Below are positions 230-17,980 of a stretch of DNA of 34,662 nt, piece by piece. Made by a program: the position numbers and the translations under genes. The stretch comes from an uncultured Candidatus Saccharibacteria bacterium (GTDB taxonomy: Bacteria > Patescibacteriota > Minisyncoccia > Phycocordibacterales > CAIZIN01), in contig CAZGFB010000001.1 in NCBI GenBank assembly GCA_964525175.1, positions 1-34,662 of the forward strand, written 5' to 3'. How positions within the stretch are numbered: position 1 is the stretch's first letter; each line of letters opens with the position of its first letter. Under the pieces are notes generated by a model. That model saw nothing but the letters and a program-made list of their open reading frames with translations. It ran no database searches and was not told the DNA's origin.

Positions 230-2992
230 ATGAAATCAACAAAATACGTGTATTCGTTTGGAGGAAAAAAGGCTGACGGAAACGGCAGTATGAAACCACT
301 TCTAGGAGGAAAGGGTGCAAACCTCGCAGAAATGAGTCGAATCGGCTTGCCGGTGCCACCCGGCTTCACAATCACAACAGAAGTTTGTGGTTATTATTAT
401 GACAACAAAAAAACATATCCAAAGACTTTAGAACAAGAAGTTAAGGCTGGTATTTCTGCTATTGAAAAAAACATGGGTGTAAAGTTTGGAAACAAAAATG
501 CTTTACCTCTTCTTGTTTCTGTTCGTTCAGGTGCACGAGACTCAATGCCTGGAATGATGGATACGATTTTAAACCTTGGTCTAAATGATGAGACAGTTCT
601 TGCTTTAGCAAAAGCAACAAACAATGATCGATTCGCATGGGACTGTTACCGACGCTTCATTCAAATGTATGGAGATGTTGTGATGGGTGTTCAAAAGCGA
701 GAAGGTGAAGATCACGAACCTTTTGAAGTTGTGATTGAAACTCTTAAACATGAAACTTATAAAGAAGATATCGACGACTCAAAACTCACAGTTGAAGATT
801 TGAAAAAAATGGTTACTCGTTTCAAAGCTTTGATTAAAGAGCGAACAGGAAAAGCATTTCCACAAGATCCATGGCAACAGCTTTGGGGATCTACTGGAGC
901 AGTTTTTGGTTCATGGATGAACGACCGAGCTTCTGTTTACCGAAGAAAATATAATATTCCAACAGAATGGGGAACAGCGGTGAATATTCAGGCTATGGTA
1001 TATGGAAACACGGGTGTTAAATCTGGTTCAGGTGTGGCCTTTACTCGAAACCCAGCAAACGGTGATAAAGAATTCTGGGGTGAGTTCCTAATTAATGCAC
1101 AAGGTGAAGATGTGGTGGCTGGCGTTCGTACTCCAGAGCCAGTTGAGAAGCTTGTAAATTATTTACCTGAAGCTTACAAAGAATTAATGAAAATTCGAAA
1201 CACTCTTGAGACTCACTTTAAAGATGTGCAGGACCTTGAGTTTACAATTCAAGACGAAAAAGTTTTCATCCTACAAACTCGAAATGGTAAGCGAACAGCG
1301 ATGGCTGCTTTGAAAATTTCTATGGATATGGTGAAGGAAAAACTTATCGATTGGAAAACAGCTATTAAGCGAAACCCAGCAGAACAACTTGATCAACTTC
1401 TAGCGCCGATTTTTGATGTGAAAGCAGAAAAATCTGCAAGAGTTATTGCAAAAGGTTTGCCTGCAGGACCAGGAGCAGCTTCTGGAAAAATTTACTTCAG
1501 TGCAGAGCGTGCAGTTATTGCAGGGGACAAAGGTGAGAAAGTCTTGCTTGTTCGAGCAGAGACAACACCAGAAGACTTGCGAGGAATGATTGCTGCCGAA
1601 GGTATTCTTACAGCGAAAGGTGGAGTTTCTTCACATGCTGCGCTTGTGGCTCGCCAAATGGGTAAAGTTTGTGTTTGCGGAGTTTCATCTTTGCAAATTG
1701 ATTACGATAAAAAGACTTTGACAGCAGGTGGTAATGTATACAAAGAAGGAGACTTCATTTCGATTAACGGAACACTTGGTACTGTTTACGCTGGTGCAAT
1801 AAAAACTGCTCCATCAGAAATTGTTCAAGTTCTTATCGATAAAACACTTAAGCCAAAAGATAGCGAAACATATCAAATGTATGCGACTCTTATGGAATGG
1901 TGTGCAAAGGCAACAAAATTGCAGGTTCGCACAAACGCAGATACTCCTGAACAAGTAGAAAATGCTTTATCGTTTGGTGCAACGGGAGTAGGGCTTGTGC
2001 GTACAGAACATATGTTCTTCGAAGGTGACCGAATTGATGCGATGCGAGAAATGATTCTTGCAGATAATCTAGAAGATCGAAAGAAGGCTTTAGCAAAACT
2101 CTTGCCATATCAAAAAGCAGACTTTGCCGGAATCTTTAAAGCATTGAAAGGCTTCCCAGCAACTATTCGCTTCTTAGATCCACCACTTCACGAATTCCTT
2201 CCTCACGAAGAAAAAGCACAAAAAGATTTGGCTTCCAAAATGAATATTTCAGTTGATAAGATTAAACATCGAATCGAAGAGCTTCACGAGTTCAACCCAA
2301 TGCTTGGTTTTCGTGGATGCCGTTTGGGAATTATCCATCCTGAAATTTCAGAGATGCAGGCACGTGCAGTATTTGAAGCTGCTGTGATGATTCAAAAGAC
2401 AGGTGTGAAAGTAAAACCAGAAATCATGATTCCTCTTGTTGGTTTCAAGAAAGAGCTTGATCTTCAAGTTGAAGTTGTGCACCGAATTGCAAAAGAAGTA
2501 ATGGCAGAAAAGAAAACAAAAGTTGATTATATGGTCGGTACAATGATTGAAGTTCCTCGTGGAGCTTTGACAGCTGATGAAATTGCACAAACAGCACAAT
2601 TCTTTAGTTTTGGAACAAACGACTTAACACAAACATGTTTGGGTATGAGTCGAGACGATTCAGGTTCTTTCATTCCTTCATATCAAGAAAGTGAAATAAT
2701 CAAAATGAATCCTTTTGCTTCTATCGACCAGACTGGTGTTGGAGCGTTGATGAAGATTGCTGTAGAGAAGGGAAATGCTACACGACCTGGAATCAAGATG
2801 GGTATTTGTGGAGAGCACGGAGGCGACCCAGCTTCAGTGAAATTCTGCCACAAGCTTGGTCTTACATATGTAAGCTGTTCTCCATATCGTGTGCCTGTTG
2901 CAAGACTTGCAGCTGCACAATCTGCTCTTGAAGACGAAGCTGTCACAGTTAAAACTGTAAAGAAGGCAGTAAAGAAAGTTTCAAAGAAGTAG
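230..2992 (+). CDS. ppdK: Pyruvate, phosphate dikinase
   Basis: 920-aa ORF with N-terminal nucleotide-binding region ([21 protein letters not shown]), phospho-His swivel motif [15 protein letters not shown] and C-terminal PEP/pyruvate domain with [11 protein letters not shown] terminator hairpin follows. Confidence 0.96.
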
Positions 2993-3010
2993 AAAACTAG
3001 GTTTAAAAAG

Positions 3011-3044
3011 AAAAATCACACAACTTCAAAATTGTGTGATTTTT
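3011..3044. terminator. Bidirectional intrinsic terminator after ppdK
   Basis: AAAAATCACACAA / loop CTTCAAAA / TTGTGTGATTTTT: a 13-bp stem flanked by an A-run and a T-run. Confidence 0.8.
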
Positions 3045-3046
3045 CT

Positions 3047-3283
3047 TTATACATGTAAAAACCCACCGAGCCAAATCTTGGCTGGTGGGTTACGAGTGAG
3101 AGTTAAAGAAGTTTGCTGAGTCTGGACCTCTTTTGCCTCTTTAGCCTTCTCAGATAAGCGCATGTGCTTTCGATCTGATGTGCTTGTTGTTGGATGCAAA
3201 TTTCGAATTCGATTTCGGCGAGCTTTAGTCTTTTCATAATGTATCTCCTTCTTCATATTAAATTCATATTCATTTTGTGTCAA
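3047..3283 (-). CDS. Hypothetical small basic protein; frame uncertain (alternative 44-aa ORF at 3103..3237 in another frame)
   Basis: The 78-aa ORF from the track runs through the terminator hairpin at 3056..3091. The alternative ORF MKRLKLAEIEFEICIQQQAHQIESTCAYLRRLKRQKRSRLSKLL has AAGGAG 7 nt before its ATG and stops about 10 nt before the terminator. No recognisable family for either. Confidence 0.3.
   Translation of the reverse strand: MTQNEYEFNMKKEIHYEKTKARRNRIRNLHPTTSTSDRKHMRLSEKAKEAKEVQTQQTSLTLTRNPPAKIWLGGFLHV
3056..3091 (-). terminator. Intrinsic terminator (minus strand)
   Basis: Minus strand reads ACCCACCAGCC-AAGATTT-GGCTCGGTGGGT followed by TTTTT (stem with a one-base bulge). Confidence 0.7.
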
Positions 3284-3346
3284 ACGATAATCTGCTTTAC
3301 ATTCCGTAATTTTTGTTTTATGTGTGGTTATCCACAGGTATAATTG

Positions 3347-3375
3347 TTGACGGTGAACGGTTGTTCACCTATACT
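3347..3375 (+). promoter_or_regulatory. Near-consensus sigma70-type promoter (TTGACG-17-TATACT) with SOS box in the spacer
   Basis: -35 TTGACG at 3347..3352, exact 17-nt spacer, -10 TATACT at 3370..3375. It reads toward the 67-aa ORF and lexA. Confidence 0.7.
3352..3369. promoter_or_regulatory. LexA operator (Cheo/SOS box, GAAC-N4-GTTC type)
   Basis: Perfect palindrome GGTGAAC-GGTT-GTTCACC. The core GAACGGTTGTTC matches the Gram-positive-type LexA box CGAACnnnnGTTCG. It is the only GAAC-N4-GTTC I found in the window, and lexA lies about 0.55 kb downstream on the same strand. Confidence 0.7.
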
Positions 3376-3482
3376 ATATATATACAAATAATTTACCCAC
3401 CAAAATTTTAATGTCATCCTACAAAATTTTCTATTCGAAAATTTAGAAGGACAAGAAAACTTAGGGGGGGGCAAGCAATCAT

Positions 3483-3686
3483 ATGAGTAGCAACACTTTC
3501 AAAAAAGCCATAGAGCAAGAGTTAAGAAAACTCAATGAAGAAATCGATAGTAAAATCGTAAAAGGTCTTTCATATATGAAGGAGTCTAAAAGGCATAAAA
3601 CTTTGTTAAGACAATTGAATAGTTTTAATCGTCATACAAGTTTATTTCAAAGATCATTCAATTTAGTAACAACATTTCTATTATAA
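3483..3686 (+). CDS. Hypothetical 67-aa protein, first ORF downstream of the SOS-box promoter
   Basis: ORF with a coiled-coil-like N-terminal half and a short hydrophobic C-terminus (FNLVTTFLL). No family recognised. Its position between the SOS box and lexA is the only support. Confidence 0.4.
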   Translation: MSSNTFKKAIEQELRKLNEEIDSKIVKGLSYMKESKRHKTLLRQLNSFNRHTSLFQRSFNLVTTFLL

Positions 3687-3724
3687 TTCAATTAATTTCA
3701 TTTCCAATTAACCTCTTCGTATTT

Positions 3725-3881
3725 GTCATTCCTGCGGAGGCAGATTCACAAGTATTTTTCTGGAGAAAAATCTTCTGAACACGACTCAGCCCGTCGGCTT
3801 CCGTCCTTGCAGTCTGGTCCCATCCCGACTTCACCAGTCTGAAAATTTAAATCATGGATTCCCGATCAGGTCGGGAATGAC
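3725..3881. repeat. Composite hairpin repeat (element B + inverted short unit)
   Basis: Starts GTCATTCCTGCGGAGG and ends GGATTCCCGATCAGGTCGGGAATGAC. Homologous in inverted orientation to 8514..8671. Confidence 0.85.
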
Positions 3882-3893
3882 ATGCGGGGAGGG

Positions 3894-3918
3894 ATTCATA
3901 ATTCTTAATTCATAATTC
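3894..3918. repeat. Single arm of the AT-rich ATTCATAATTCTTAATTC repeat family
   Basis: ATTCATAATTCTTAATTCATAATTC lies immediately upstream of the lexA ATG. The same motif forms inverted-repeat pairs at 19252..19337, 20780..20887 and 31066..31144. Confidence 0.7.
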
Positions 3919-3926
3919 TACTCATC

Positions 3927-4490
3927 ATGAACGAATATAAAAATAAAATTGTTTCTTTCTACCATCGACATCGAAGAATGCCGAGCTATCAGGAGATTAT
4001 GGACTTGGTGGGTTTTAAGTCTAAAAATGCTGTATATAAACTAATTGAAAAACTCGTAGATGAGGGTATTGTCACAAAAGATAAAAAAGGGAAACTTATC
4101 CCAAGTAACAGGCTGGATGAAATCCCAATTCTTGGTCTGGTGGAGGCGGGCTTCCCAACCACTATGGATGAGGAAATGACAGACACAATGAGTATTGATG
4201 AATATTTAATTGATCATAAAGATTCCACATATCTACTAGAAGTTAAAGGGGATTCAATGATTGATGCTGGAATATATGAAAAAGATTTGGTGATTGTGGA
4301 AAGAAAAGGTGAAGCAAAAGTTGGTGATATTGTGATAGCCGAAGTTGATGGAGGATGGACAATGAAATATTACAGAATGGACGGACATAAAGCTTATCTT
4401 GAGCCTGCTAATAAAAAATACAAACCAATATATCCAAAAGAAGGCCTGCGTATTGCAGCTATTGTGAAAGGGGTGATTAGAAAATACTAA
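3927..4490 (+). CDS. lexA: LexA repressor (S24 peptidase)
   Basis: N-terminal winged-helix region (SYQEIMDLVGFKSKNAVYKLIEKLVDEGIV), Ala-Gly cleavage site in LVEAGFP, Ser nucleophile in GDSMIDAGI and Lys in TMKYY. Confidence 0.9.
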   Translation: MNEYKNKIVSFYHRHRRMPSYQEIMDLVGFKSKNAVYKLIEKLVDEGIVTKDKKGKLIPSNRLDEIPILGLVEAGFPTTMDEEMTDTMSIDEYLIDHKDSTYLLEVKGDSMIDAGIYEKDLVIVERKGEAKVGDIVIAEVDGGWTMKYYRMDGHKAYLEPANKKYKPIYPKEGLRIAAIVKGVIRKY

Positions 4491-10577: not shown

Positions 10578-10627
10578 ATTATGGGAAAAAGCTAGAGCCT
10601 AGCGCCTAGTGCCTAAAAGCTAAAAAA

Positions 10628-12127
10628 ATGTCCAACACCGACACAGTCTTAAGATTTCAAAAAGCGTCCTTTGAGTATGGACACAATATTCCAATTCTAA
10701 ACGAAGTGGATTGTTCTGTGCGTCGAGGGTCAAAAATTACTATCATGGGTCAGAACGGTTCAGGAAAAAGTACAATCTTTGGAATAATTACTGGAAAGCT
10801 AAAACTTGAGAATGGAGATTTGTTTATTACAAATGGCGTAACTATTGCGATAGCAAGACAGGTGATTCCACGAGATGAACTAAATTTAACCCTAAGAGAA
10901 TTCTTTGAAAAAGCCTTTGATGATTCAGTGAATGCAGGGCTTCGAAAAAGTGCTGGTAAAATATACGATATTGATAAAAAAATTGATGATGTTCTTGAGG
11001 TCGTGAATCTGAAAGGTCATGAAAAATTACATGAAAGAATTGTAGATACTTTTTCAGGAGGTCAGCAGGCACGTATTCTTCTTGCTTCTGCATTAATACA
11101 AGATCCAGATATTTTACTTCTCGATGAGCCGACCAATAATTTAGATAAAGCGGGGATTGATCATCTTACACAGTTTTTGATTGACTATAAAAAGACAGTG
11201 CTTGTGATTTCTCACGAAGCTGAATTTTTGAATAAGTTTACCGATGGTGTGCTTTACCTAGATGTGTTTACGAAAAAACTCGAACAGTATGTAGGTAACT
11301 ATTTCGACGTGTCTGAACAAATTAAAATTCGTCTTGAAAAAGAAAATAGAAAAAATGCTCAATTAGCAAAAGAAATTCAAGAGAATAAAGATAAAGCAAA
11401 CTTCTTTGCAAACAAAGGAGGCCAGATGCGACTTGTGGCTCGACGTATGCGAGAAAAAGCTGAAGAACTTGAAGATGAAAAGGTGGATATTCGAAGAGAA
11501 GACAAAACAATTCGACCTTTTATAATTCCTTCTCAGCCAGAGATGATCGGTACAATAATTGCTATTTCTGAATTTGGAATAATTAGCCCGAAGACATATA
11601 AATTAATTCATAGAAAGGCAAATGTGATACTTAAGAAAAAACAGCATTTACTTTTGCGCGGTCCAAATGGTATTGGAAAAACGACCTTACTCGAACGAAT
11701 TGCAACAAGTAATGACAATGGCTCTGTGATCTCTTCAGGTGTGAGAGTTGGGTACTATAGGCAAGACTTTTCAACATTAAATTTTGAAGATACTGTTTAT
11801 GATTCTTTAATGTCTGTAATGGAGAAAAAAATAGAAGAAACAATGCGCGCAACAGCTGCTGGTTTTTTGATTACCAAAGAAATGATTCATGCAAAAATTG
11901 GCACACTTTCTGAGGGGCAAAAAGGTTTAGTTGCGTTTGCAAGGCTCGTACTTCAAAAACCGGGGTTGCTAATCTTGGATGAGCCCACAAATCACATAAA
12001 CTTTCGCCATCTTCCAATTATCGCCGAGGCTCTAAATAAATACGAAGGCGCAATGATTCTAGTTTCTCACGTCCCTGACTTTGTTAAGAAGATTAGAATT
12101 GATGAAACGTTAGATCTTGAAAAGTAA
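10628..12127 (+). CDS. ABC-F family ATPase (two ABC domains, no TMD)
   Basis: Walker A GQNGSGKST and GPNGIGKTT, signatures FSGGQQ and LSEGQK, Walker B LLLDEPTNNLD and LILDEPTNHIN, and a charged inter-domain linker (ENRKNAQLAKEIQENKDKANFFANKGG). Confidence 0.9.
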   Translation: MSNTDTVLRFQKASFEYGHNIPILNEVDCSVRRGSKITIMGQNGSGKSTIFGIITGKLKLENGDLFITNGVTIAIARQVIPRDELNLTLREFFEKAFDDSVNAGLRKSAGKIYDIDKKIDDVLEVVNLKGHEKLHERIVDTFSGGQQARILLASALIQDPDILLLDEPTNNLDKAGIDHLTQFLIDYKKTVLVISHEAEFLNKFTDGVLYLDVFTKKLEQYVGNYFDVSEQIKIRLEKENRKNAQLAKEIQENKDKANFFANKGGQMRLVARRMREKAEELEDEKVDIRREDKTIRPFIIPSQPEMIGTIIAISEFGIISPKTYKLIHRKANVILKKKQHLLLRGPNGIGKTTLLERIATSNDNGSVISSGVRVGYYRQDFSTLNFEDTVYDSLMSVMEKKIEETMRATAAGFLITKEMIHAKIGTLSEGQKGLVAFARLVLQKPGLLILDEPTNHINFRHLPIIAEALNKYEGAMILVSHVPDFVKKIRIDETLDLEK

Positions 12128-12168
12128 TCCAAGGTCTCCCCTTGGAATTTCCAAGGGGAGACCTTGGA
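12127..12168. repeat. REP doublet (left flank of RAYT)
   Basis: TCCAAGGTCTCCCCTTGGA-ATT-TCCAAGGGGAGACCTTGGA. Each half is a 7-bp-stem hairpin and the two halves are exact reverse complements. It starts at the ABC-F stop codon. Confidence 0.9.
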
Positions 12169-12213
12169 AAAACTTGTGGTTATGTAATTAAAAGTTTGGT
12201 ATGATTATATCGT

Positions 12214-12915
12214 ATGAACAGAGCCTTTGATTTTTCGATTGATGAATTTTATCACATCTATAGCCGGGGTGTTGATAAAAGAATTATTTTTCTCGAAACT
12301 TGTGATAAAGATAGGTTTGTAAAATTACTATACCTTTGTAATGGAGACAAACCAACTGTTTTTAAATCAATCCAAGGGGAGACCTTGGATAAAATTGATG
12401 TGGGTAAAAAGATAGTTTCTATAGGTGCATATTGCTTGATGGATAATCATTTTCATATTCTACTTAAGGAAATTGAGGAGGGTGGTATCAGTAAATTCAT
12501 GATGAGACTTCTAACAGCTTATTCAATGTATTTTAATAAAAAAAATAAAAGGACAGGCTCTTTGTTTGAAAGTGAATTTAAAGCAAAACATCTTGATACT
12601 GACGAATATTTAAAATATATTCTCTCATATATACATTTAAATCCGATAAAGATGATCCAACCTAATTGGAAAGAAGATGGTATTTTTGATAAAACTAAAG
12701 CAAAATTATTTTTAGATAAGTATAATTATTCTAGCTATTCTGATTACTTAGGCGCAGAAAGGGAAGAGGGGTTAATATTAGATAAAAAAGGATTACCTGA
12801 ATATTTTGCTGAATTTAAGGTTTTTGAGGATTTTATAGATGAATGGCTGTCTTTTATTCCTGACTCAGAAATCCAAGGTCTCCCCTTGGAAATTCCAAGG
12901 GGAGACCTTGGATAG
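12214..12915 (+). CDS. REP-associated tyrosine transposase (RAYT; IS200/IS605 Y1 family)
   Basis: YHIYSRGVDKRIIF, HUH motif in AYCLMDNHFHILL, TGSLFESEFKAKHL and catalytic-Tyr motif YILSYIHLNPIK. The last ~15 codons are translated REP sequence. Confidence 0.8.
   Translation: MNRAFDFSIDEFYHIYSRGVDKRIIFLETCDKDRFVKLLYLCNGDKPTVFKSIQGETLDKIDVGKKIVSIGAYCLMDNHFHILLKEIEEGGISKFMMRLLTAYSMYFNKKNKRTGSLFESEFKAKHLDTDEYLKYILSYIHLNPIKMIQPNWKEDGIFDKTKAKLFLDKYNYSSYSDYLGAEREEGLILDKKGLPEYFAEFKVFEDFIDEWLSFIPDSEIQGLPLEIPRGDLG
12371..12389. repeat. Single REP hairpin inside the RAYT coding sequence
   Basis: TCCAAGGGGAGACCTTGGA, encoding part of SIQGETLDK, within the loop preceding the HUH motif. Confidence 0.85.
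12872..12912. repeat. REP doublet (right flank of RAYT)
   Basis: TCCAAGGTCTCCCCTTGGA-AAT-TCCAAGGGGAGACCTTGGA, same orientation as the left doublet. Confidence 0.9.
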
Positions 12916-13360
12916 AGTACAAATTAAATCTTTAGATAGTTCTTTGGTAATTGGATCTCTAGGTAGTCCTTCAGACAGTCTTAATGTTATTGGAGACGTT
13001 GCTTTTGACGTGAAGGCTCTCACAGATTCAGCGACCACCTTAGATTCCTTTAGTCTTCCTGTAACTATCACATATCAATATTTAAACGAAGATATTTCGG
13101 GATTTAATGAATCAACTTTGTGGATGTATCACTATCATGGCGGAGCTTGGGTTGCTCTTGATGATTGTCAAATAAGCACCAGCACAAAAACGATTTCATG
13201 TACTGCTCCAAATTTTTCAATCTTTTCGTTATTTGCAGAAAGAACTCAAGAATCAACACCGACACCACCAACACCATCAATATCGACTCCTTCTAGATCT
13301 CAAGGAACTTCTGTTCAAACCAGAGTTAAGAACTTAATTTCTATGGGAAATACTAAATCA

Positions 13361-13657
13361 GCAGATGATTTAAAGAAACAATATTCGTATCTATTTCCAA
13401 ATGAAAATCAAATAGACACAAAAGCAAAAGAGACTTCACTTTCCCCAGCGTTTAATCGAGATCTTAAATTTGGTATGACAGGAGCGGATGTTAAGAAACT
13501 TCAACAATATTTAAACAATAATGGATATGTCGTTGCTAAAACAGGAGCTGGATCTAAAGGAAAAGAGACGACAACATTTGGACCTGCAACACGCTCAGCT
13601 TTAATTAAATTTCAAAAGGCAAACAAAATTACACCAGCAATCGGATATTTTGGTCCA
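13361..13657 (+). repeat. 297-nt near-identical direct repeat (copy 1), PG-binding domain coding
   Basis: Aligns without gaps to 17625..17921 with about 5 mismatches by eye. Weaker similarity extends upstream to about 13295 / 17559. Confidence 0.9.
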
Positions 13658-13837
13658 GTGACAAGAGCGTTTGTGGGGAAGTAATATTATTCCAGATTTA
13701 CTTCATTATCTTTTGAAACAAAAAGTGATGCAATGAAAAGAGAATGCACAATTAAGAAACTTAAGAGGAGAGAAAAATTAAGATTATTTAAGTAGTGGCA
13801 TTATTTGTGTATTATTTTTGGTATATCGGTAAGGTTC

Positions 13838-13846
13838 TGGTATAAT
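13838..13846 (+). promoter_or_regulatory. Extended -10 (TGgTATAAT) upstream of the large surface protein gene
   Basis: TGGTATAAT 40 nt upstream of ATG 13887. Confidence 0.45.
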
Positions 13847-13886
13847 TATAGTGTGTATTTTGTTAAAAATTATTACTACAAATTAA

Positions 13887-16800
13887 ATGAATGAAAAAAC
13901 CTATATCAGCCAAAAATCTGTTCAATCTTCTAATCTAGGATACGAGAGAGAAAATAGCTCCCGTTCAAAATTTAAATTATCTTTAGTAAAAACATTTGTA
14001 ATCTTTTTTGTGTTCCTTTTATTTTTTGTAGTTCGAGTAGAAAAAATTCACGCCGCGCAAATAACAGTTTATGCTACGGCAAATGGTGTAAAATGGATGG
14101 GTACTAATGCTGGTTGGAATACAAATCCAGATGGTGTGAGTGGAACTTTTTATAGTAATCCACAAAACAATTCAACTGATACGTTTATTGTTGATCTTAA
14201 TGGAAAATCTGGAATATCTATTGATACAGACATTGTTGTAGATAAAATACAAGATTCTTCAGCTACTGCAAGCGTTTCTCTTAATGCGCCAAGAACTATT
14301 TCTGTTTTAAATGGTGGTATTTACTATTCGGGTGCTAATACAGGGGGACTTATTAGTTCAAGTTATAATTTGACAGTTCTTGGTACTGTCACGAGCGCAG
14401 TTGGTGGTAAGCGTGTGATTATTACAAGTGGGACCGCATCGTTGACAATTAATGCTGGTGTTGGAAATACGGCAGTTCTCAATCAAGGAACGAGCTATGT
14501 AATTAATCATGCTGGTAGTGGCCAAATTACAGTTATTGGAAAAGTTGTTGGTTCAACAACACTTGCTGCCATTTACGTTACTACCGCATCCAATCAGCTT
14601 TATTACAATCCAGGATATGATGTTTTTAGTGATGGAGGCGCTTCTGCTGGTGGCCGTTCTTTACAAAATACTAGTGGCACAATTGTTGCAGTTGGAAATA
14701 TATCAGGTACATCTGCGAACGGGTCAAGCATAGAAATGATTCGAAATGATGGTGGAACCTTTGAATTAATTGGAAATATAGCAATTACAGGCTCAGCAGT
14801 TCGTGGTATTTGGAACCGCACAGGAGCTGTCGCACACGTGTATGGAAATGTTGATGTGTCAGGCAGTACCGGCGCCTCTTATGGTGTTTGGAATCAATCA
14901 GTCACTACAAGCAACACAATTACTGGTAACCTAAGCAATCCAAGTGGCTCACCAACAGCTGTCGCAGCTTTTTCTAGTGCTGGAATGGTAACAATATATG
15001 GAACAAAAACTGGAAGTGGAACTGTGAACTCAGCAACTTATACTACGATGGCAACGACTTATGTTTCAGTTTCCCCGGCATCATTACCTGCCGGAGCAAC
15101 TGGATATCTCGACACTAGTATTACTGGAGTAGGGACTACTTGGAACGGAAGTGAAACCCCAACAATAAATAATAGTGTAAGTAGCATTACTGCTGTATCA
15201 TCTGGTGAATGGACTACTACAGATGGCACACATGCCACCTTGCCTTTGCAAAATAGTGCAACAAGTAGCTTTGGTGCATTTAGTATAACTATAGGTACAG
15301 CTACTTCTGGTCCACTTGCTGTTTTTTCACCCTCACATATTTTGAGTCAAACAACCGGAGCGACAAGCAATTCCTATAACTTAACAATTACAGGAATAAA
15401 TACTCTTTGGGCGATGGATATTGCAAAAGGAAATCATACAGCTTCAAATTTATTCTCTGCCTCTACTGGAGGGACAATAAGCAATGTCCTAGTATCAAAT
15501 GATAATACAGTTACTTTAACATTAGCTACAGATGCAACTCAGCGTGTAATAACTATTACAGATAATAGTACAAATCAAACAAGTGCTTTTGATACAAATA
15601 ATATTTTAACGTACGATCTTAGTCCAACCGGAGGGAATGTAAATAATTATATTATGATCGAGGGAGGTATGAGATGGGATGGTGGTCGTTGGATCAGCAC
15701 TGCGCTTACTAGTGGTGCAGGAACTGCATTGGGAGCAGTACGCTTTGTTGGAAAGATAAATAAAATAGATGGCTATATTTCTCAGACTGGTAGTGCTGGA
15801 GCTGGTAATTTGGTTATTTTAAATATTGATGGTGAAAATGGGCCCACCTATTCTGTTCCTTATGTAGTTGGTGGGGCATTCCCAAATGCATGGCTTACAA
15901 TGTTTTCTGGATTAGATGACACAGCCACACATACATATATGTTAATTTGGCCAAACGGAGAAGTTGTGGGTAACCCAACTATTGGAAAAATTCGCACGAC
16001 AGGTGGTACAGGAATCAGCACTACAGCTCTTGTTCCACGGCCTGTGCTAGCGGTTTACGGTGATTCAATTACTCAAGGTGGAGCATACGAAAGTTCGCCA
16101 CATAACTCAACACTTTATTATGCTTATTTGTTAGCAAAAAAACTCAATTATCAAGTCGTTAACTTGGGAATTAGTGGAAGTACAGTTAGCTCACTGACTC
16201 ATGGAGGTCTTAATCCAACAACAAAAAATGGTGTAAGCAGAACAGCTGATATAACTAGCCTTAACCCAAAAGCAAGTATAGTATTAATTTTATATGGTAC
16301 CAATGATGTTACCTTTAACGCTAACCAAGGAGGAACACCCACAGAGGCCAATTTTCGAGCGGACTATGCTAGCATGCTCGCTGGTATTCGTGCGGGAAAC
16401 CCAAATGCATTAATTATTTCAGAGAGAATTTTGATGACGTCGCGAGTGGATGAAGCGACTAGAAATACATGGAGCCAAACAGATATTGCAGCAGCTGTAT
16501 CAGCACAATCAGATCCAAAGATTTTATATATGCATGGTGGGTGGGATAATTATCAAGACACCACAGGTAGTGATGGAGTGCACCCTCTTCCAAGTAAAAA
16601 CCAAGATATAGCGGATGGGATGTATTCTGACATTATCTCTGCAATTTCGACAACTGATTCAATTAAAGTTGCTACAACTACATTGACCAGCAGAGGTGGT
16701 ACATCTGCAACAATTACTTCTGCGGGTGGTATTCATGGTACGGCACCATACACATATCAATGGCTGCGTAGTGCAACGAGTAGCTGGTCTGGATTTCAAG

Positions 16801-17957
16801 TTGATGGAGCTACTGCAACAACATTAAATGACACAGGTTTAAATCCTTTGTCGACATACTATTACACACTTCAAACGACAGACAGCAACGGATTTTCAGC
16901 ACTTAGTAGTCCTGTTGAGGTTGGTCCTGCTTCAAACGACGCTACTCTTTCTGATTTAGTTATAAGTCAAGGAACTCTAAGTCCGGTATTTTCTTCAAGT
17001 ACAACTTCATACACCGTTGATGTTTTAAATGACGTCACAAGTTTGACTGTTACTCCAACTGCAAATCAGGCAAATGCAACAATCACAGTGAATGGTGAGG
17101 CCGTTAATAGTGGTGAAACATCAAGCCTAATAACATTAAATGTTGGTGACAACACTGTTTTGACGGTAACACTTGCTCAGGATGAGTCAACAACCAGAAC
17201 ATATACAATAACTGTAACAAGAGGGGCTGTAATAGTTATTCCACCAACATTAACCGTTCAAGACGCTTCATTGGTTGCAACGAGTTCCGCTGTCTTTAAT
17301 GGAACTATCACAGTTGATGGATATGCCTCTTCAACTATTGTTGGTTTTAATTATGGAACAACATTAGCATATGGTAGTACAGCTTCAACTACTGGAACAT
17401 TTGGTACAGAAACTTTCTCTAAAACAGTTACAGACCTGCTTCCAAATACTCTCTATCACTTTCAGGCTTTTGCAGAAAATAGTGCAGGGGTCGGAACATC
17501 AAGTGATGCTACAACTACCACCTCAGCACTTCCTGTATCTCCGGTACAAAGCACAACCAGATCCCAGGGTAGCTCAGTACAAAGCAGGCTTAAAAACCTA
17601 ATTTATATGGGCAAAACCCAAGCGGCAGATGATTTAAAGAAACAATATTCCTATCTATTTCCAAATGAAAATCAAATAGACACAAAAGCAAAAGAGACTT
17701 CACCTTCCCCAGCGTTTACTCGAGATCTTAAATTTGGTATGACAGGAGCGGATGTTAAGAAACTTCAACAATATTTAAACAATAATGGATATGTCGTTGC
17801 TAAAACAGGAGCTGGATCTAAAGGAAAAGAGACGACAACATTTGGACCTGCAACACGCTCAGCTTTAATTAAATTTCAAAAAGCAAACAAAATTACTCCA
17901 GCAATCGGATATTTTGGTCCAAAAACACGAGGTGTGGTGGAGAAATCTGCTTTGTAA
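13887..17957 (+). CDS. Large secreted/cell-surface multidomain protein with SGNH (GDSL) hydrolase and C-terminal peptidoglycan-binding domain
   Basis: Signal/anchor segment (VKTFVIFFVFLLFFVVRVEKIHA). About 650 aa Gly/Thr/Ser/Asn-rich repetitive region (beta-helix-like). SGNH blocks GDSITQGG (GDS at 16059..16067), GISGST, YGTNDV and DGVHPLP. FN3-like segments, a cadherin-like/Big segment (ATLSDLVISQGTLSPVFSSSTTSYTVDV) and a PG_binding_1-like C-terminus. Confidence 0.85.
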   Translation: MNEKTYISQKSVQSSNLGYERENSSRSKFKLSLVKTFVIFFVFLLFFVVRVEKIHAAQITVYATANGVKWMGTNAGWNTNPDGVSGTFYSNPQNNSTDTFIVDLNGKSGISIDTDIVVDKIQDSSATASVSLNAPRTISVLNGGIYYSGANTGGLISSSYNLTVLGTVTSAVGGKRVIITSGTASLTINAGVGNTAVLNQGTSYVINHAGSGQITVIGKVVGSTTLAAIYVTTASNQLYYNPGYDVFSDGGASAGGRSLQNTSGTIVAVGNISGTSANGSSIEMIRNDGGTFELIGNIAITGSAVRGIWNRTGAVAHVYGNVDVSGSTGASYGVWNQSVTTSNTITGNLSNPSGSPTAVAAFSSAGMVTIYGTKTGSGTVNSATYTTMATTYVSVSPASLPAGATGYLDTSITGVGTTWNGSETPTINNSVSSITAVSSGEWTTTDGTHATLPLQNSATSSFGAFSITIGTATSGPLAVFSPSHILSQTTGATSNSYNLTITGINTLWAMDIAKGNHTASNLFSASTGGTISNVLVSNDNTVTLTLATDATQRVITITDNSTNQTSAFDTNNILTYDLSPTGGNVNNYIMIEGGMRWDGGRWISTALTSGAGTALGAVRFVGKINKIDGYISQTGSAGAGNLVILNIDGENGPTYSVPYVVGGAFPNAWLTMFSGLDDTATHTYMLIWPNGEVVGNPTIGKIRTTGGTGISTTALVPRPVLAVYGDSITQGGAYESSPHNSTLYYAYLLAKKLNYQVVNLGISGSTVSSLTHGGLNPTTKNGVSRTADITSLNPKASIVLILYGTNDVTFNANQGGTPTEANFRADYASMLAGIRAGNPNALIISERILMTSRVDEATRNTWSQTDIAAAVSAQSDPKILYMHGGWDNYQDTTGSDGVHPLPSKNQDIADGMYSDIISAISTTDSIKVATTTLTSRGGTSATITSAGGIHGTAPYTYQWLRSATSSWSGFQVDGATATTLNDTGLNPLSTYYYTLQTTDSNGFSALSSPVEVGPASNDATLSDLVISQGTLSPVFSSSTTSYTVDVLNDVTSLTVTPTANQANATITVNGEAVNSGETSSLITLNVGDNTVLTVTLAQDESTTRTYTITVTRGAVIVIPPTLTVQDASLVATSSAVFNGTITVDGYASSTIVGFNYGTTLAYGSTASTTGTFGTETFSKTVTDLLPNTLYHFQAFAENSAGVGTSSDATTTTSALPVSPVQSTTRSQGSSVQSRLKNLIYMGKTQAADDLKKQYSYLFPNENQIDTKAKETSPSPAFTRDLKFGMTGADVKKLQQYLNNNGYVVAKTGAGSKGKETTTFGPATRSALIKFQKANKITPAIGYFGPKTRGVVEKSAL
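17625..17921 (+). repeat. 297-nt near-identical direct repeat (copy 2)
   Basis: See 13361..13657. Confidence 0.9.
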
Positions 17958-17980
17958 TTAATGGCTAGAAGTTGAAGAAA

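What the first reader, a model, noticed from the sequence alone, without database searches (positions are those of the whole stretch)
12127..12915. RAYT transposase bracketed by its own REP doublets, with a REP copy inside its own coding sequence
The 233-aa product has the Y1/HUH hallmarks of REP-associated tyrosine transposases (AYCLMDNHFHILL; YILSYIHLNPIK). It is flanked by identical palindromic doublets TCCAAGGTCTCCCCTTGGA-N3-TCCAAGGGGAGACCTTGGA (12127..12168 and 12872..12912). A single hairpin TCCAAGGGGAGACCTTGGA also lies in frame inside the gene (12371..12389, peptide SIQGETLDK) in the loop before the HUH motif. The ORF reads through the right doublet, so its C-terminus is REP-encoded. 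This REP is unrelated to the abundant GTCATYC family, so the genome holds at least two independent hairpin-repeat systems. The left doublet abuts the ABC-F stop codon, and the right one abuts a truncated surface-protein gene.
Basis: partly seen in the sequence, partly recalled or inferred. Interest (0 to 1): 0.6.

Follow-up and report, generated by a model that had tools for sequence, protein, structure and literature searches.

The report
Transposase gene carrying its own hairpin
A transposase-like gene in a tiny-genome (Patescibacteria) bacterium is flanked by the short DNA hairpin it presumably acts on and also holds a translated copy of it at a fixed spot inside the gene; many relatives do the same, each with its own matching hairpin.

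Summary
The 19-nt hairpin TCCAAGGGGAGACCTTGGA occurs five times: doublets at 12128-12168 and 12872-12912, and one in-frame copy at 12371-12389. The doublets are exact reverse complements of each other, not identical.

The 233-aa product is a Y1/HUH nuclease. It passes Pfam Y1_Tnp, keeps HUH and YIHLNP, and its model best matches E. coli TnpA-REP (4ER8). The hairpin also lies at five other sites in this 0.77-Mb genome, once as an in-frame doublet in a transketolase gene. This is a REP/RAYT unit of a non-canonical kind: no GTAG foot, low copy number, and a score below the NCBIfam RAYT cut-off.

The in-gene copy is not a recent insertion. In 47 of 71 homologous loci with flanking hairpins, the locus's own flank hairpin recurs at the same codon position (33 exactly; 2 exact with swapped loci). 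The stem co-varies and the peptide changes with it.

The most likely reading is an old, position-fixed REP copy kept in step with the others, probably a site for the enzyme on its own gene. That function is inferred.

REPs inside RAYT genes are published only for another subclass, at another position. This scan has already reported the same layout on other genomes.

The parts
12128..12168 (.). Left REP doublet (REPIN-like). It consists of hairpin TCCAAGG-TCTCC-CCTTGGA (12128-12146), spacer ATT, and hairpin TCCAAGG-GGAGA-CCTTGGA (12150-12168). It starts directly after the ABC-F stop codon.
   Evidence: Exact matches. It folds as one 19-bp hairpin of -24.6 kcal/mol, z -8.8. It is the exact reverse complement of the right doublet. 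Homology to a congener that lacks the unit (L100) ends at 12128.
12197..12205 (+). Possible extended -10 promoter element TGgTATGAT, 8 nt before the ATG, which would give a leaderless mRNA. This is inferred only.
   Evidence: Read from the sequence. The same TGaTATGAT / TGaTATCAT lies 7-8 nt before the ATG in L092 and L093. The consensus scan, which needs a -35 hexamer, did not list it.
12214..12915 (+). Gene for a 233-aa Y1/HUH nuclease of the RAYT type. HUH is H79-F80-H81 (12448-12456). The catalytic Tyr candidate is Y139 in YIHLNP (12628-12630).
   Evidence: Pfam PF01797 scores 34.2 bits against a cut-off of 23. NCBIfam NF047646 scores 39.5 bits against a cut-off of 80. H79, H81, Y139 and the NP are invariant in 25 homologs. 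The AlphaFold model has pLDDT 87.9 and its best fold match is 4ER8.
12370..12390 (+). In-frame internal REP copy A-TCCAAGG-GGAGA-CCTTGGA-T, which encodes S-I-Q-G-E-T-L-D (residues 53-60). It lies in the loop between helix 1 and the strand before HUH, with its centre 65 nt before the Asn codon of NHFH.
   Evidence: The homologous position holds the locus's own flank hairpin in 47 of 71 loci. Stem covariation is shown.
12872..12912 (.). Right REP doublet (spacer AAT), inverted relative to the left one. It is translated as the last 14 residues of the protein and is followed by the stop TAG at 12913-12915.
   Evidence: The encoded tail, residues 219-233, has pLDDT below 50. Most homologs end near residue 215-220.
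12916..17976 (+). Variable 5-kb segment that begins within about 8 nt of the right doublet. It holds a truncated surface-protein gene (to 13684), a remnant of the 3' end of a GIY-YIG gene (13708-13789) and a 1356-aa surface-protein gene (13887-17957). It is not part of the unit but marks a rearrangement breakpoint at its edge.
   Evidence: A blastn comparison with L092 aligns window 10591-12919 and then resumes at 17977. L092 has a 79-aa GIY-YIG gene there instead. The GIY-YIG remnant was seen against L100.

Best explanation
This is a REP/RAYT unit (a 'REPtron') of a Patescibacteria lineage. It is a single-copy gene for a Y1/HUH single-strand-DNA nuclease, flanked on both sides by inverted doublets of its cognate 19-nt hairpin. 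That hairpin is also scattered at low copy number through the genome.

The enzyme presumably binds and cuts the hairpin as single-stranded DNA and so spreads or renews the copies. This is inferred from the solved E. coli TnpA-REP/REP complex and the IS608 family.

The copy inside the gene is an old member of the same repeat family. It sits in frame at one fixed place, a loop before the HUH motif. It is kept letter for letter in step with the flanking copies while the repeat sequence drifts between lineages, so the repeat dictates about eight residues of the protein.

I think the in-gene copy is most likely kept because it serves as a site for the enzyme on its own gene. That would give either feedback on expression or a protected template copy that ties the repeat to the gene. 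This last step is inference only.
For: Shown:
- Enzyme family: the Pfam Y1_Tnp score is above threshold. HUH and Y-x-x-x-N-P are invariant. The model's best fold match is 4ER8, E 3e-6, followed by IS608 and ISDra2 TnpA.
- Repeat family: there are 11 hairpins at 7 sites in the genome, against 0 for the control pattern. One doublet lies in frame in a transketolase gene, and three congeners have no insert there.
- Copy number: only one other paralog exists, at 57% identity. The gene sits at the same ABC-F locus in relatives whose RAYT is 91% identical (ABC-F found upstream) and 75% identical (same downstream genes).
- Other genomes: ten genomes hold 2-20 cognate hairpins per 0.5-1 Mb (nine of them 7-20), against 0-3 for the control. 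Where loops could be compared they are mostly those of the local RAYT locus, and three of the genomes listed show two RAYT-type hairpin triples with different loops.
- In-gene copy: the 17-nt core of a locus's own flank hairpin recurs at +155 to +206 in 47 of 71 loci (33 exactly). With swapped loci there were 2 exact matches and 10 within three mismatches.
- Covariation: the score is 0.312 against 0.181+-0.014 in shuffles (0 of 500 reached it) and 0.09-0.16 in slid controls.
- In 35-45%-identical paralogs, unrelated hairpins occupy the same loop.
- Some in-gene stems are far longer than the part shared with the flanks: 17 bp in L057 and 11 bp in L068. This points to selection on the hairpin itself.

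Inferred: DNA binding and cutting, and any regulatory role.
Against: - The protein scores 39.5 bits against NCBI's RAYT equivalog cut-off of 80.
- The hairpins lack the 5' GT[AG]G foot of canonical REPs and number only about a dozen per genome.
- 24 of 71 loci keep flanking hairpins without an in-gene copy, so that copy is not needed to maintain the unit.
- Loop orientation of the flanking copies relative to the in-gene copy is not constant: upstream 26 minus / 14 plus, downstream 24 plus / 12 minus.
- Presence of the in-gene copy is scattered on a poorly resolved tree, which cannot tell gain from loss.
- Between the window and its 91% relative, the 7 synonymous sites of the in-gene hairpin are all unchanged. 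Given 78.7% third-position identity this has P about 0.19, so it is not significant on its own.
- No expression or activity data exist.
Confidence: 0.65

Rival explanations
1. The in-gene hairpin is a neutral passenger. A repeat landed once, or repeatedly, in a permissive surface loop of the nearest gene, the enzyme's own. It stays similar to the flanking copies only through gene conversion or template switching between repeats a few hundred bases apart. It has no function.
For: - The same repeats sit in frame in other genes, such as the transketolase on C53.
- One third of loci have lost the in-gene copy yet keep their flank hairpins.
- The loop length varies freely among distant paralogs with and without a copy.
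- Quentin et al. 2018 (PMC6006769) treat in-gene REPs of subclass 2.4 as tolerated insertions.
Against: - The position and frame are fixed over homologs down to about 50% identity, and the same loop is used in 35-45% paralogs with unrelated hairpins.
- Some in-gene stems extend 8 or more pairs beyond the part shared with the flanks (L057), which conversion from the flanks cannot produce.
- 43 of 81 in-gene hairpins are still perfect.
Confidence: 0.25
2. The whole 785-bp unit is an autonomous IS200-like insertion sequence. The two hairpin doublets would be its left and right ends and the unit would move as a block.
For: - The hairpins hug both gene ends as in IS200/IS605.
- The unit is missing downstream of ABC-F in a congener (G012), and homology stops exactly at the first base of the left doublet.
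- Distribution among relatives is patchy: 16 of 31 genomes, and 3 of 5 in the genus.
Against: - There is no second near-identical copy in the genome; the only paralog is 57% identical.
- The unit is at the same locus in relatives with 91% and 75% identical proteins.
- Solo hairpins and doublets without a gene are dispersed through the genome.
- The tyrosine motif is Y-x-x-x-N-P (class 2, RAYT-like), not the Y-x-x-x-Q of IS200 transposases (Table 1 of PMC6006769).
- G012 holds a different gene (HAD-like) at the site, so there is no clean empty site.
Confidence: 0.08
3. The hairpins act in the mRNA rather than in DNA. They would form stem-loops that control translation, stability or processing of the transposase message, as described for IS200.
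For: - The in-gene and 3' hairpins are certainly transcribed.
- The 3' doublet would form a 20-bp stem at the message's end.
- In many homologs the upstream hairpin ends only 13-30 nt before the start codon.
Against: - In this clade a conserved TGnTATGAT lies 7-8 nt before the ATG. This suggests a leaderless message that excludes the upstream doublet, though it is an inference.
- The same hairpin is dispersed in unrelated places and on both strands.
- A test for strand-specific G-T over A-C mismatches had too few cases to decide: 3 against 1.
- No Rfam family reached its threshold.
Confidence: 0.1
4. The in-gene hairpin is a recent insertion of a REP into this particular gene. The first reader left this possibility open.
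For: The copy is identical to the flanking copies.
Against: - The same position holds a hairpin in relatives at 91%, 75% and 50-64% identity.
- There is no length difference between loci with and without a hairpin.
Confidence: 0.02

Closest known systems
REPtrons: RAYT / TnpA-REP genes flanked by their cognate REPs. Examples are E. coli yafM (PDB 4ER8) and the REPIN-RAYT systems of Pseudomonas (Nunvar 2010 PMC2817692; Bertels and Rainey 2011 PMC3116915; Messing 2012 PMC3479197).
   Same: - It is a Y1/HUH fold with a Y-x-x-x-N-P tyrosine motif.
- The gene is single-copy and flanked by inverted hairpin doublets that fold as one long hairpin, like a REPIN.
- The same hairpin is dispersed in the genome.
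- Each paralog has its own hairpin family.
- The gene keeps its locus among close relatives.
   Different: - There is no GT[AG]G foot.
- The hairpin is short and perfect (7-9 bp stem, 5-nt loop) with no bulge.
- There are only about 10-20 copies per genome.
- The protein is about 70 residues longer, with a conserved C-terminal part, and falls below the NCBIfam RAYT cut-off.
- A cognate copy lies in frame inside the gene.
TnpA-Y1 subclass 2.4 of Quentin, Siguier, Chandler and Fichant 2018 (PMC6006769). It is found in Cyanobacteria and Bacteroidetes. That paper calls REPs inserted in frame within tnpA-REP 'a unique feature' of this subclass.
   Same: Cognate REPs lie inside the enzyme's own reading frame without breaking it, in a peripheral part of the protein.
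   Different: [quoted passage not shown]
- Here the copy lies before HUH at one fixed codon position, without added length within the family, and it co-varies with the flanks.
- The motifs differ: YIHLNP here against YIxNNP there.
- A few distant Patescibacteria paralogs do carry a second copy between HUH and Y (L118, L112).
TnpA-Y1 subclass 2.1 (Bertels group 1; the 'TIRYT' of Di Nocera 2013, PMC3733652)
   Same: The motifs NH[YF]H and Y[IV]HLNP, a length near 238 aa, a conserved Ser-Ser in the tail and low-abundance flanking repeats all fit (Table 1 of PMC6006769; about 12 occurrences of the flanking 16-mer in Bertels 2017).
   Different: - Subclass 2.1 is reported to have no REP-like hairpins and to carry a helix-turn-helix-like C-terminal domain.
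- Here hairpins flank the gene, and Pfam found no such domain.
- I could not run the authors' profiles.
Rickettsia palindromic elements and other REPs inserted in frame into host genes (summarised in PMC3733652)
   Same: A palindromic repeat is translated in frame in loops of functional proteins. Here that includes the transketolase gene on contig C53.
   Different: Those cases are scattered insertions in unrelated genes. Here one copy is a fixed, co-varying part of the gene for the enzyme presumed to act on the repeat.

Membership tests
Y1/HUH transposase superfamily (Pfam PF01797, Y1_Tnp) | Profile score above Pfam's gathering threshold | tested here: met
   34.2 bits against a cut-off of 23, E 3e-8, residues 66-141.
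Y1/HUH transposase superfamily (Pfam PF01797, Y1_Tnp) | HUH metal-binding motif and a single catalytic tyrosine on a following helix | tested here: met
   H79-F80-H81 and Y139 are invariant in 25 homologs. Y139 lies in helix 130-147 of the model.
Y1/HUH transposase superfamily (Pfam PF01797, Y1_Tnp) | RRM-like fold shared with solved TnpA structures | tested here: met
   Foldseek's best hits are 4ER8 (E 3e-6), then 2VIC, 2A6M and 2VJV (IS608) and 2XM3 (ISDra2), all with probability 1.00. A sequence-only search of the PDB found nothing.
RAYT / TnpA-REP (REPtron) | Class-2 tyrosine motif Y-x-x-x-N-P, as opposed to the Y-x-x-x-Q of IS200 | tested here: met
   YIHLNP is invariant. The criterion comes from PMC6006769.
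RAYT / TnpA-REP (REPtron) | Gene flanked by palindromic repeats in inverted orientation | tested here: met
   The doublets at 12128-12168 and 12872-12912 are exact reverse complements. 71 of 81 homologous loci have flanking hairpins.
RAYT / TnpA-REP (REPtron) | The same repeat dispersed elsewhere in the genome, mostly outside genes | tested here: met
   There are five further sites on five contigs, against 0 for the control pattern. C39 and C51 lie at gene ends and C53 lies in frame in a gene. The copy number is low: 11 hairpins in 0.77 Mb of a genome that is 77% complete.
RAYT / TnpA-REP (REPtron) | Single copy, with no near-identical duplicates in the genome | tested here: met
   Only one other homolog exists, at 57% identity. 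The assembly is fragmented, so collapsed copies cannot be excluded.
RAYT / TnpA-REP (REPtron) | Score above NCBIfam's equivalog cut-off (NF047646) | tested here: not met
   39.5 bits against a cut-off of 80.
RAYT / TnpA-REP (REPtron) | Conserved 5' GT[AG]G tetranucleotide at the foot of the hairpin (canonical REPs) | tested here: not met
   The flanks of all copies are T- or A-runs, and no GTAG/GTGG is present.
RAYT / TnpA-REP (REPtron) | The enzyme binds and cuts its REP as single-stranded DNA | not testable with these tools
   This needs purified protein and oligonucleotides.
IS200/IS605 TnpA (TnpA-Y1 subclass 1.1) | Y-x-x-x-Q motif, about 150 aa, and several near-identical copies per genome | tested here: not met
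   The motif is YIHLNP, the length is 233 aa, and the only paralog is 57% identical.
TnpA-Y1 subclass 2.4 (REPs inserted in tnpA-REP) | [quoted passage not shown] | tested here: not met
   The motif is YIHLNP. The in-gene copy lies 65 nt before the HUH motif.
TnpA-Y1 subclass 2.1 | NH[YF]H, Y[IV]HLNP, about 238 aa, Ser-Ser in the tail, an HTH-like C-terminal domain and no REPs | tested here: inconclusive
   The motifs, the length and S173-S174 fit. Pfam detected no HTH domain and REPs are present. The authors' profiles were not available.

The most novel reading that the evidence does not exclude
The in-gene hairpin is a working part of the system. Either it is the enzyme's binding or cutting site on its own gene, giving self-limiting control, or it is a selection-protected master copy from which the dispersed repeats are renewed. 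In the second case gene and repeat would form one self-contained replicator whose recognition sequence is written into its own protein.
Probability: 0.3. Interest if true: 0.75.

Novelty: new variant of a known kind. Interest (0 to 1): 0.55.

Why it matters
How REPs and their domesticated transposases stay matched over long times is an open question. Almost all data come from Proteobacteria.

Here each of many natural enzyme/hairpin pairs carries a copy of the hairpin at a fixed place inside the enzyme's gene. In the loci examined that copy changes in step with the outside copies. This offers three things:
- a ready-made catalogue of cognate pairs for specificity studies;
- a simple handle for testing whether such enzymes act on their own gene, by breaking the stem with synonymous changes;
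- an extension of REP/RAYT biology to ultra-small genomes, where the repeats are even written into essential genes.

The practical point for annotation is that about eight residues inside these proteins, and their C-terminal tails, are dictated by a repeat rather than by protein function.

Tried and rejected
- **DNA or RNA?** I counted G-T against A-C mismatches in near-perfect hairpins to tell mRNA or strand-specific function from double-strand function. There were too few cases to decide: 3 against 1 in the gene, 4 against 5 upstream, 3 against 2 downstream.
- **Gain or loss?** A tree of the 81 proteins, with the hairpin columns removed, is nearly a star (9 of 78 branches well supported). 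Presence of the in-gene copy needs 22 changes on it, so neither gain nor loss can be inferred.
- **Loop length.** The loop before HUH varies in length among distant paralogs, with no clear link to having a copy.
- **Which flank does the in-gene copy follow?** Mostly a tie: 6 closer to the upstream copy, 3 closer to the downstream copy, 28 equal.
- **Synonymous-site conservation.** Against the 91% relative, 7 of 7 hairpin third positions are unchanged, which is not significant on its own (P about 0.19).
- **Rfam.** Only sub-threshold matches to animal and plant microRNA hairpin families, which I take as chance.
- **PDB by sequence.** A sequence search of the PDB found nothing.
- **Terminator reading.** Rejected. 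The T-run precedes and the A-run follows the hairpin on both strands. The scan found only the left doublet on the minus strand.
- **Specificity residue.** I make no claim about which residue reads which base.
Full report
**1. The observation**

The region was read directly. The hairpin TCCAAGGGGAGACCTTGGA (7-bp stem, 5-nt loop) occurs five times without a mismatch: 12128-12146(-), 12150-12168(+), 12371-12389(+), 12872-12890(-) and 12894-12912(+). None appeared in 100 shuffles.

The left doublet begins one base after the ABC-F stop codon (TAA, 12125-12127). Their spacers are ATT and AAT, so each doublet is the exact reverse complement of the other.

As single-stranded DNA each doublet folds into one 19-20-bp hairpin of about -24.5 kcal/mol (z near -9). 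This is the shape described for REP doublets (REPINs). The internal copy folds at -7.7 kcal/mol.

The ORF 12214-12915 reads through the right doublet, so its last 14 residues are hairpin-encoded.

**2. The protein**

- The 233-aa product passes Pfam Y1_Tnp, at 34.2 bits against a cut-off of 23.
- It stays below NCBI's cut-off for the canonical REP-associated tyrosine transposase, at 39.5 bits against 80.
- About 3,700 homologs were found, nearly all unnamed or named 'transposase' from Patescibacteria.
- In an alignment of 25 of them, H79, H81 and Y139-I-H-L-N-P are invariant. So is a set of residues in a C-terminal part of about 90 residues that the Pfam model does not cover.
- An AlphaFold model is confident (pLDDT 87.9, pTM 0.85) except for residues 1-3 and the hairpin-encoded tail 219-233.
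- Its best structural match is E. coli TnpA-REP bound to a REP hairpin (4ER8, E 3e-6), followed by the IS608 and ISDra2 transposases.

**3. The repeat family in this genome**

The assembly has 0.77 Mb in 98 contigs, 36% G+C, and is 77% complete. The hairpin recurs at five more sites: C37, C39, C53 (a doublet), and C9 and C51 with one mismatch each. The control pattern gave none.

- C39 lies 3 nt after a gene's stop codon.
- C51 lies between convergent genes.
- The 39-nt C53 doublet lies in frame inside the gene for the C-terminal transketolase subunit, giving the peptide IPRSPLGIQGETLE.
- Three genomes of the same genus have no insert there (VFFEEENPKVTIIATG).
- A fourth congener (G012) has, at the same site, a doublet of a different hairpin, ATCAAGGT-CAG-ACCTTGAT. 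That is the hairpin of its own RAYT-type gene.

There is one other homolog in the genome (C15, 57% identical). It has no hairpins and a shortened N-terminus.

**4. The in-gene copy is a family feature, not a local accident**

The peptide that the hairpin encodes (IQGxxLD) is conserved in the alignment, and several homologs end in similar hairpin-like tails. I therefore fetched 80 homologous loci with their DNA, at 50-64% protein identity.

In most of them a perfect hairpin lies at the same codon position. The same hairpin, loop included, lies just upstream of the start and at or just past the stop. The hairpin differs between loci:
- TCCAAGG-ACTCC
- CATAGGG-GTA
- ACAAGGT-TCA
- CAAAGG-TCTTT
- GTACAAGGG-CGA
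- GAAGG-GCGGT

The encoded peptide changes with it, to PIGxPYV, PKGxxFV, REGxxFxEL or LQGSTL.

I then ran a test that starts from the flanks. Of the 81 loci, 71 have a perfect flanking hairpin. The best match to its 17-nt core anywhere in the coding sequence lies at +155 to +206, with at most three mismatches, in 47 loci (33 exact). With loci paired at random there are 2 exact matches and 10 within three mismatches. The background is 6-7 mismatches.

The hairpin centre sits 65 nt before the Asn codon of NHFH in most loci. Loci with and without a hairpin have the same length there.

On a MAFFT alignment of all 81 segments, results were as follows:

| Measure | Observed | Shuffled | Slid controls |
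|---|---|---|---|
| Cells forming a pair | 69.8% | 59.4% (0 of 500 shuffles reach the observed value) | 29.5-50.7% |
| Covariation score | 0.312 | 0.181+-0.014 (0 of 500) | 0.09-0.16 |

Some in-gene stems are much longer than the part shared with the flanks (17 bp in L057, 11 bp in L068). Copying from the flanks cannot explain this.

In paralogs only 35-45% identical, from genomes of the same order, wholly unrelated hairpins occupy the same loop together with both flanks. Examples are GGACAT-CGG-ATGTCC, GGAAGT-GAG-ACTTCC and TAAACAC-CGA-GTGTTTA. [quoted passage not shown]

**5. Behaviour in relatives**

- A genome of the same genus (RAYT 91% identical) has the unit at the same place after ABC-F, with the same hairpins in all five positions but spacer CACT in both doublets.
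- A contig with a 75% identical protein has loop ACCGT upstream, its complement ACGGT in the gene, and ACCCA/TGGGT in the 3' doublet.
- Another congener (G012) has no unit after ABC-F. Homology to the window stops at 12128, the first base of the left doublet, and a HAD-like gene lies there instead.
- Homologs were found in 16 of 31 related genomes, and in 3 of 5 of the genus.
- In ten other genomes the cognate hairpins number 2-20 per 0.5-1 Mb (nine of them 7-20), against 0-3 for the control. Their loops are mostly those of the local gene, and three of the genomes listed show two RAYT-type hairpin triples with different loops.

**6. The right-hand edge**

Compared with the 91% relative, the window is colinear up to 12919 and again from 17977. 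In between lies a 5-kb segment with a truncated surface-protein gene, a remnant of the GIY-YIG gene that follows the unit in the relatives, and a 1356-aa surface-protein gene. A rearrangement breakpoint therefore lies within about 8 nt of the right doublet's outer edge.

**7. What it is and how it probably works**

The evidence shows:
- a single-copy Y1/HUH nuclease gene;
- its private hairpin on both flanks, inside it, and dispersed in the genome;
- the same layout in many relatives, each with its own matching hairpin.

That is the REPtron pattern. By analogy with the solved E. coli complex and IS608, the enzyme most likely binds and cuts the hairpin as single-stranded DNA. This is inferred.

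The in-gene copy is an old, position-fixed member of the repeat family. It stays matched to the others while the family drifts. I favour the reading that it is kept as a site for the enzyme on its own gene, either for feedback or as a protected template. The reasons are that its position is conserved far beyond what repeated chance insertion would give, and that some lineages have lengthened its stem within the coding sequence.

The main rival is a neutral passenger in a permissive loop, homogenised by conversion. One third of loci have lost the copy, which speaks for that rival.

An autonomous IS200-like element is unlikely. There are no near-identical copies, the locus is stable among close relatives, the tyrosine motif is Y-x-x-x-N-P, and solo hairpins exist.

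A purely mRNA-level role is possible but not favoured. A conserved TGnTATGAT lies 7-8 nt before the ATG, which suggests a leaderless message that leaves the upstream doublet out.

**8. Comparison with what is known**

REPtrons and REPINs are well described for Proteobacteria (PMC2817692, PMC3116915, PMC3479197).

Quentin et al. 2018 (PMC6006769) report REPs inserted in frame within tnpA-REP genes as 'a unique feature' of their subclass 2.4. [quoted passage not shown]

The present family has the motifs and length of their subclass 2.1 (NHFH, YIHLNP, Ser-Ser). That subclass is reported to have no REPs. I could not run their profiles.

No paper found with 'RAYT' and 'Patescibacteria' deals with these genes.

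Relative to the literature I could search, this is a new variant: another subclass, another position, fixed and co-varying, in another phylum.

Earlier notes of this scan describe the same layout on several other genomes. My results were reached before reading them and agree with them. One of those notes records that a proposed residue-to-base specificity rule failed a later test, and I make no such claim.

**9. Limits**

- The genomes are fragmented metagenome assemblies, so copy numbers are lower bounds.
- The tree is unresolved.
- No expression, binding or cleavage data exist.

Noticed in passing
own genome, contig C53:3358-3396 (inside the minus-strand ORF 2985-4010): A 39-nt doublet of the same hairpin lies in frame inside the gene for the C-terminal transketolase subunit (peptide IPRSPLGIQGETLE). 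Three congeners have no insert there. A fourth (G012, L102) has at the same site a doublet of the hairpin that belongs to its own RAYT-type gene (L095). G000 and G012 also share the altered flanks FDS...G.
   Followed up: partly
window 12916-17976: A 5-kb segment that is absent from the closest relative starts within about 8 nt of the right doublet's outer edge. It contains a truncated surface-protein gene, a remnant of the 3' end of a GIY-YIG gene (13708-13789) and a 1356-aa surface-protein gene. In relatives a 79-aa GIY-YIG gene follows the unit directly.
   Followed up: partly
own genome, contig C15:8180-8788 (minus strand): A second RAYT-type gene, 57% identical, has a shortened N-terminus and no hairpin in or around it. 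It lies next to an IS110-like transposase gene that is interrupted by a run of N. It resembles the intact, hairpin-bearing gene of congener G012 (L095), so it may be a decaying copy.
   Followed up: partly
L107, L110, L118, L122, L112 (genomes of the same order): Paralogs only 35-45% identical show the same layout with wholly different hairpins. [quoted passage not shown]
   Followed up: partly
L057:1648-1709 (also L032 and L068): The in-gene hairpin has a perfect 17-bp stem (37 nt) within the coding sequence, 8 pairs longer than the part shared with that locus's flanking hairpins.
   Followed up: no
There are 22 sites in the window and 387 in the genome, with arms such as GTCATTCCGG...CCGGAATGAC. 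No enzyme gene was linked to it here.
   Followed up: no
window 12197-12205; L092 and L093 at the homologous place: A conserved TGnTATGAT / TGnTATCAT lies 7-8 nt before the ATG and there is no Shine-Dalgarno sequence. This suggests a leaderless message for this gene.
   Followed up: no
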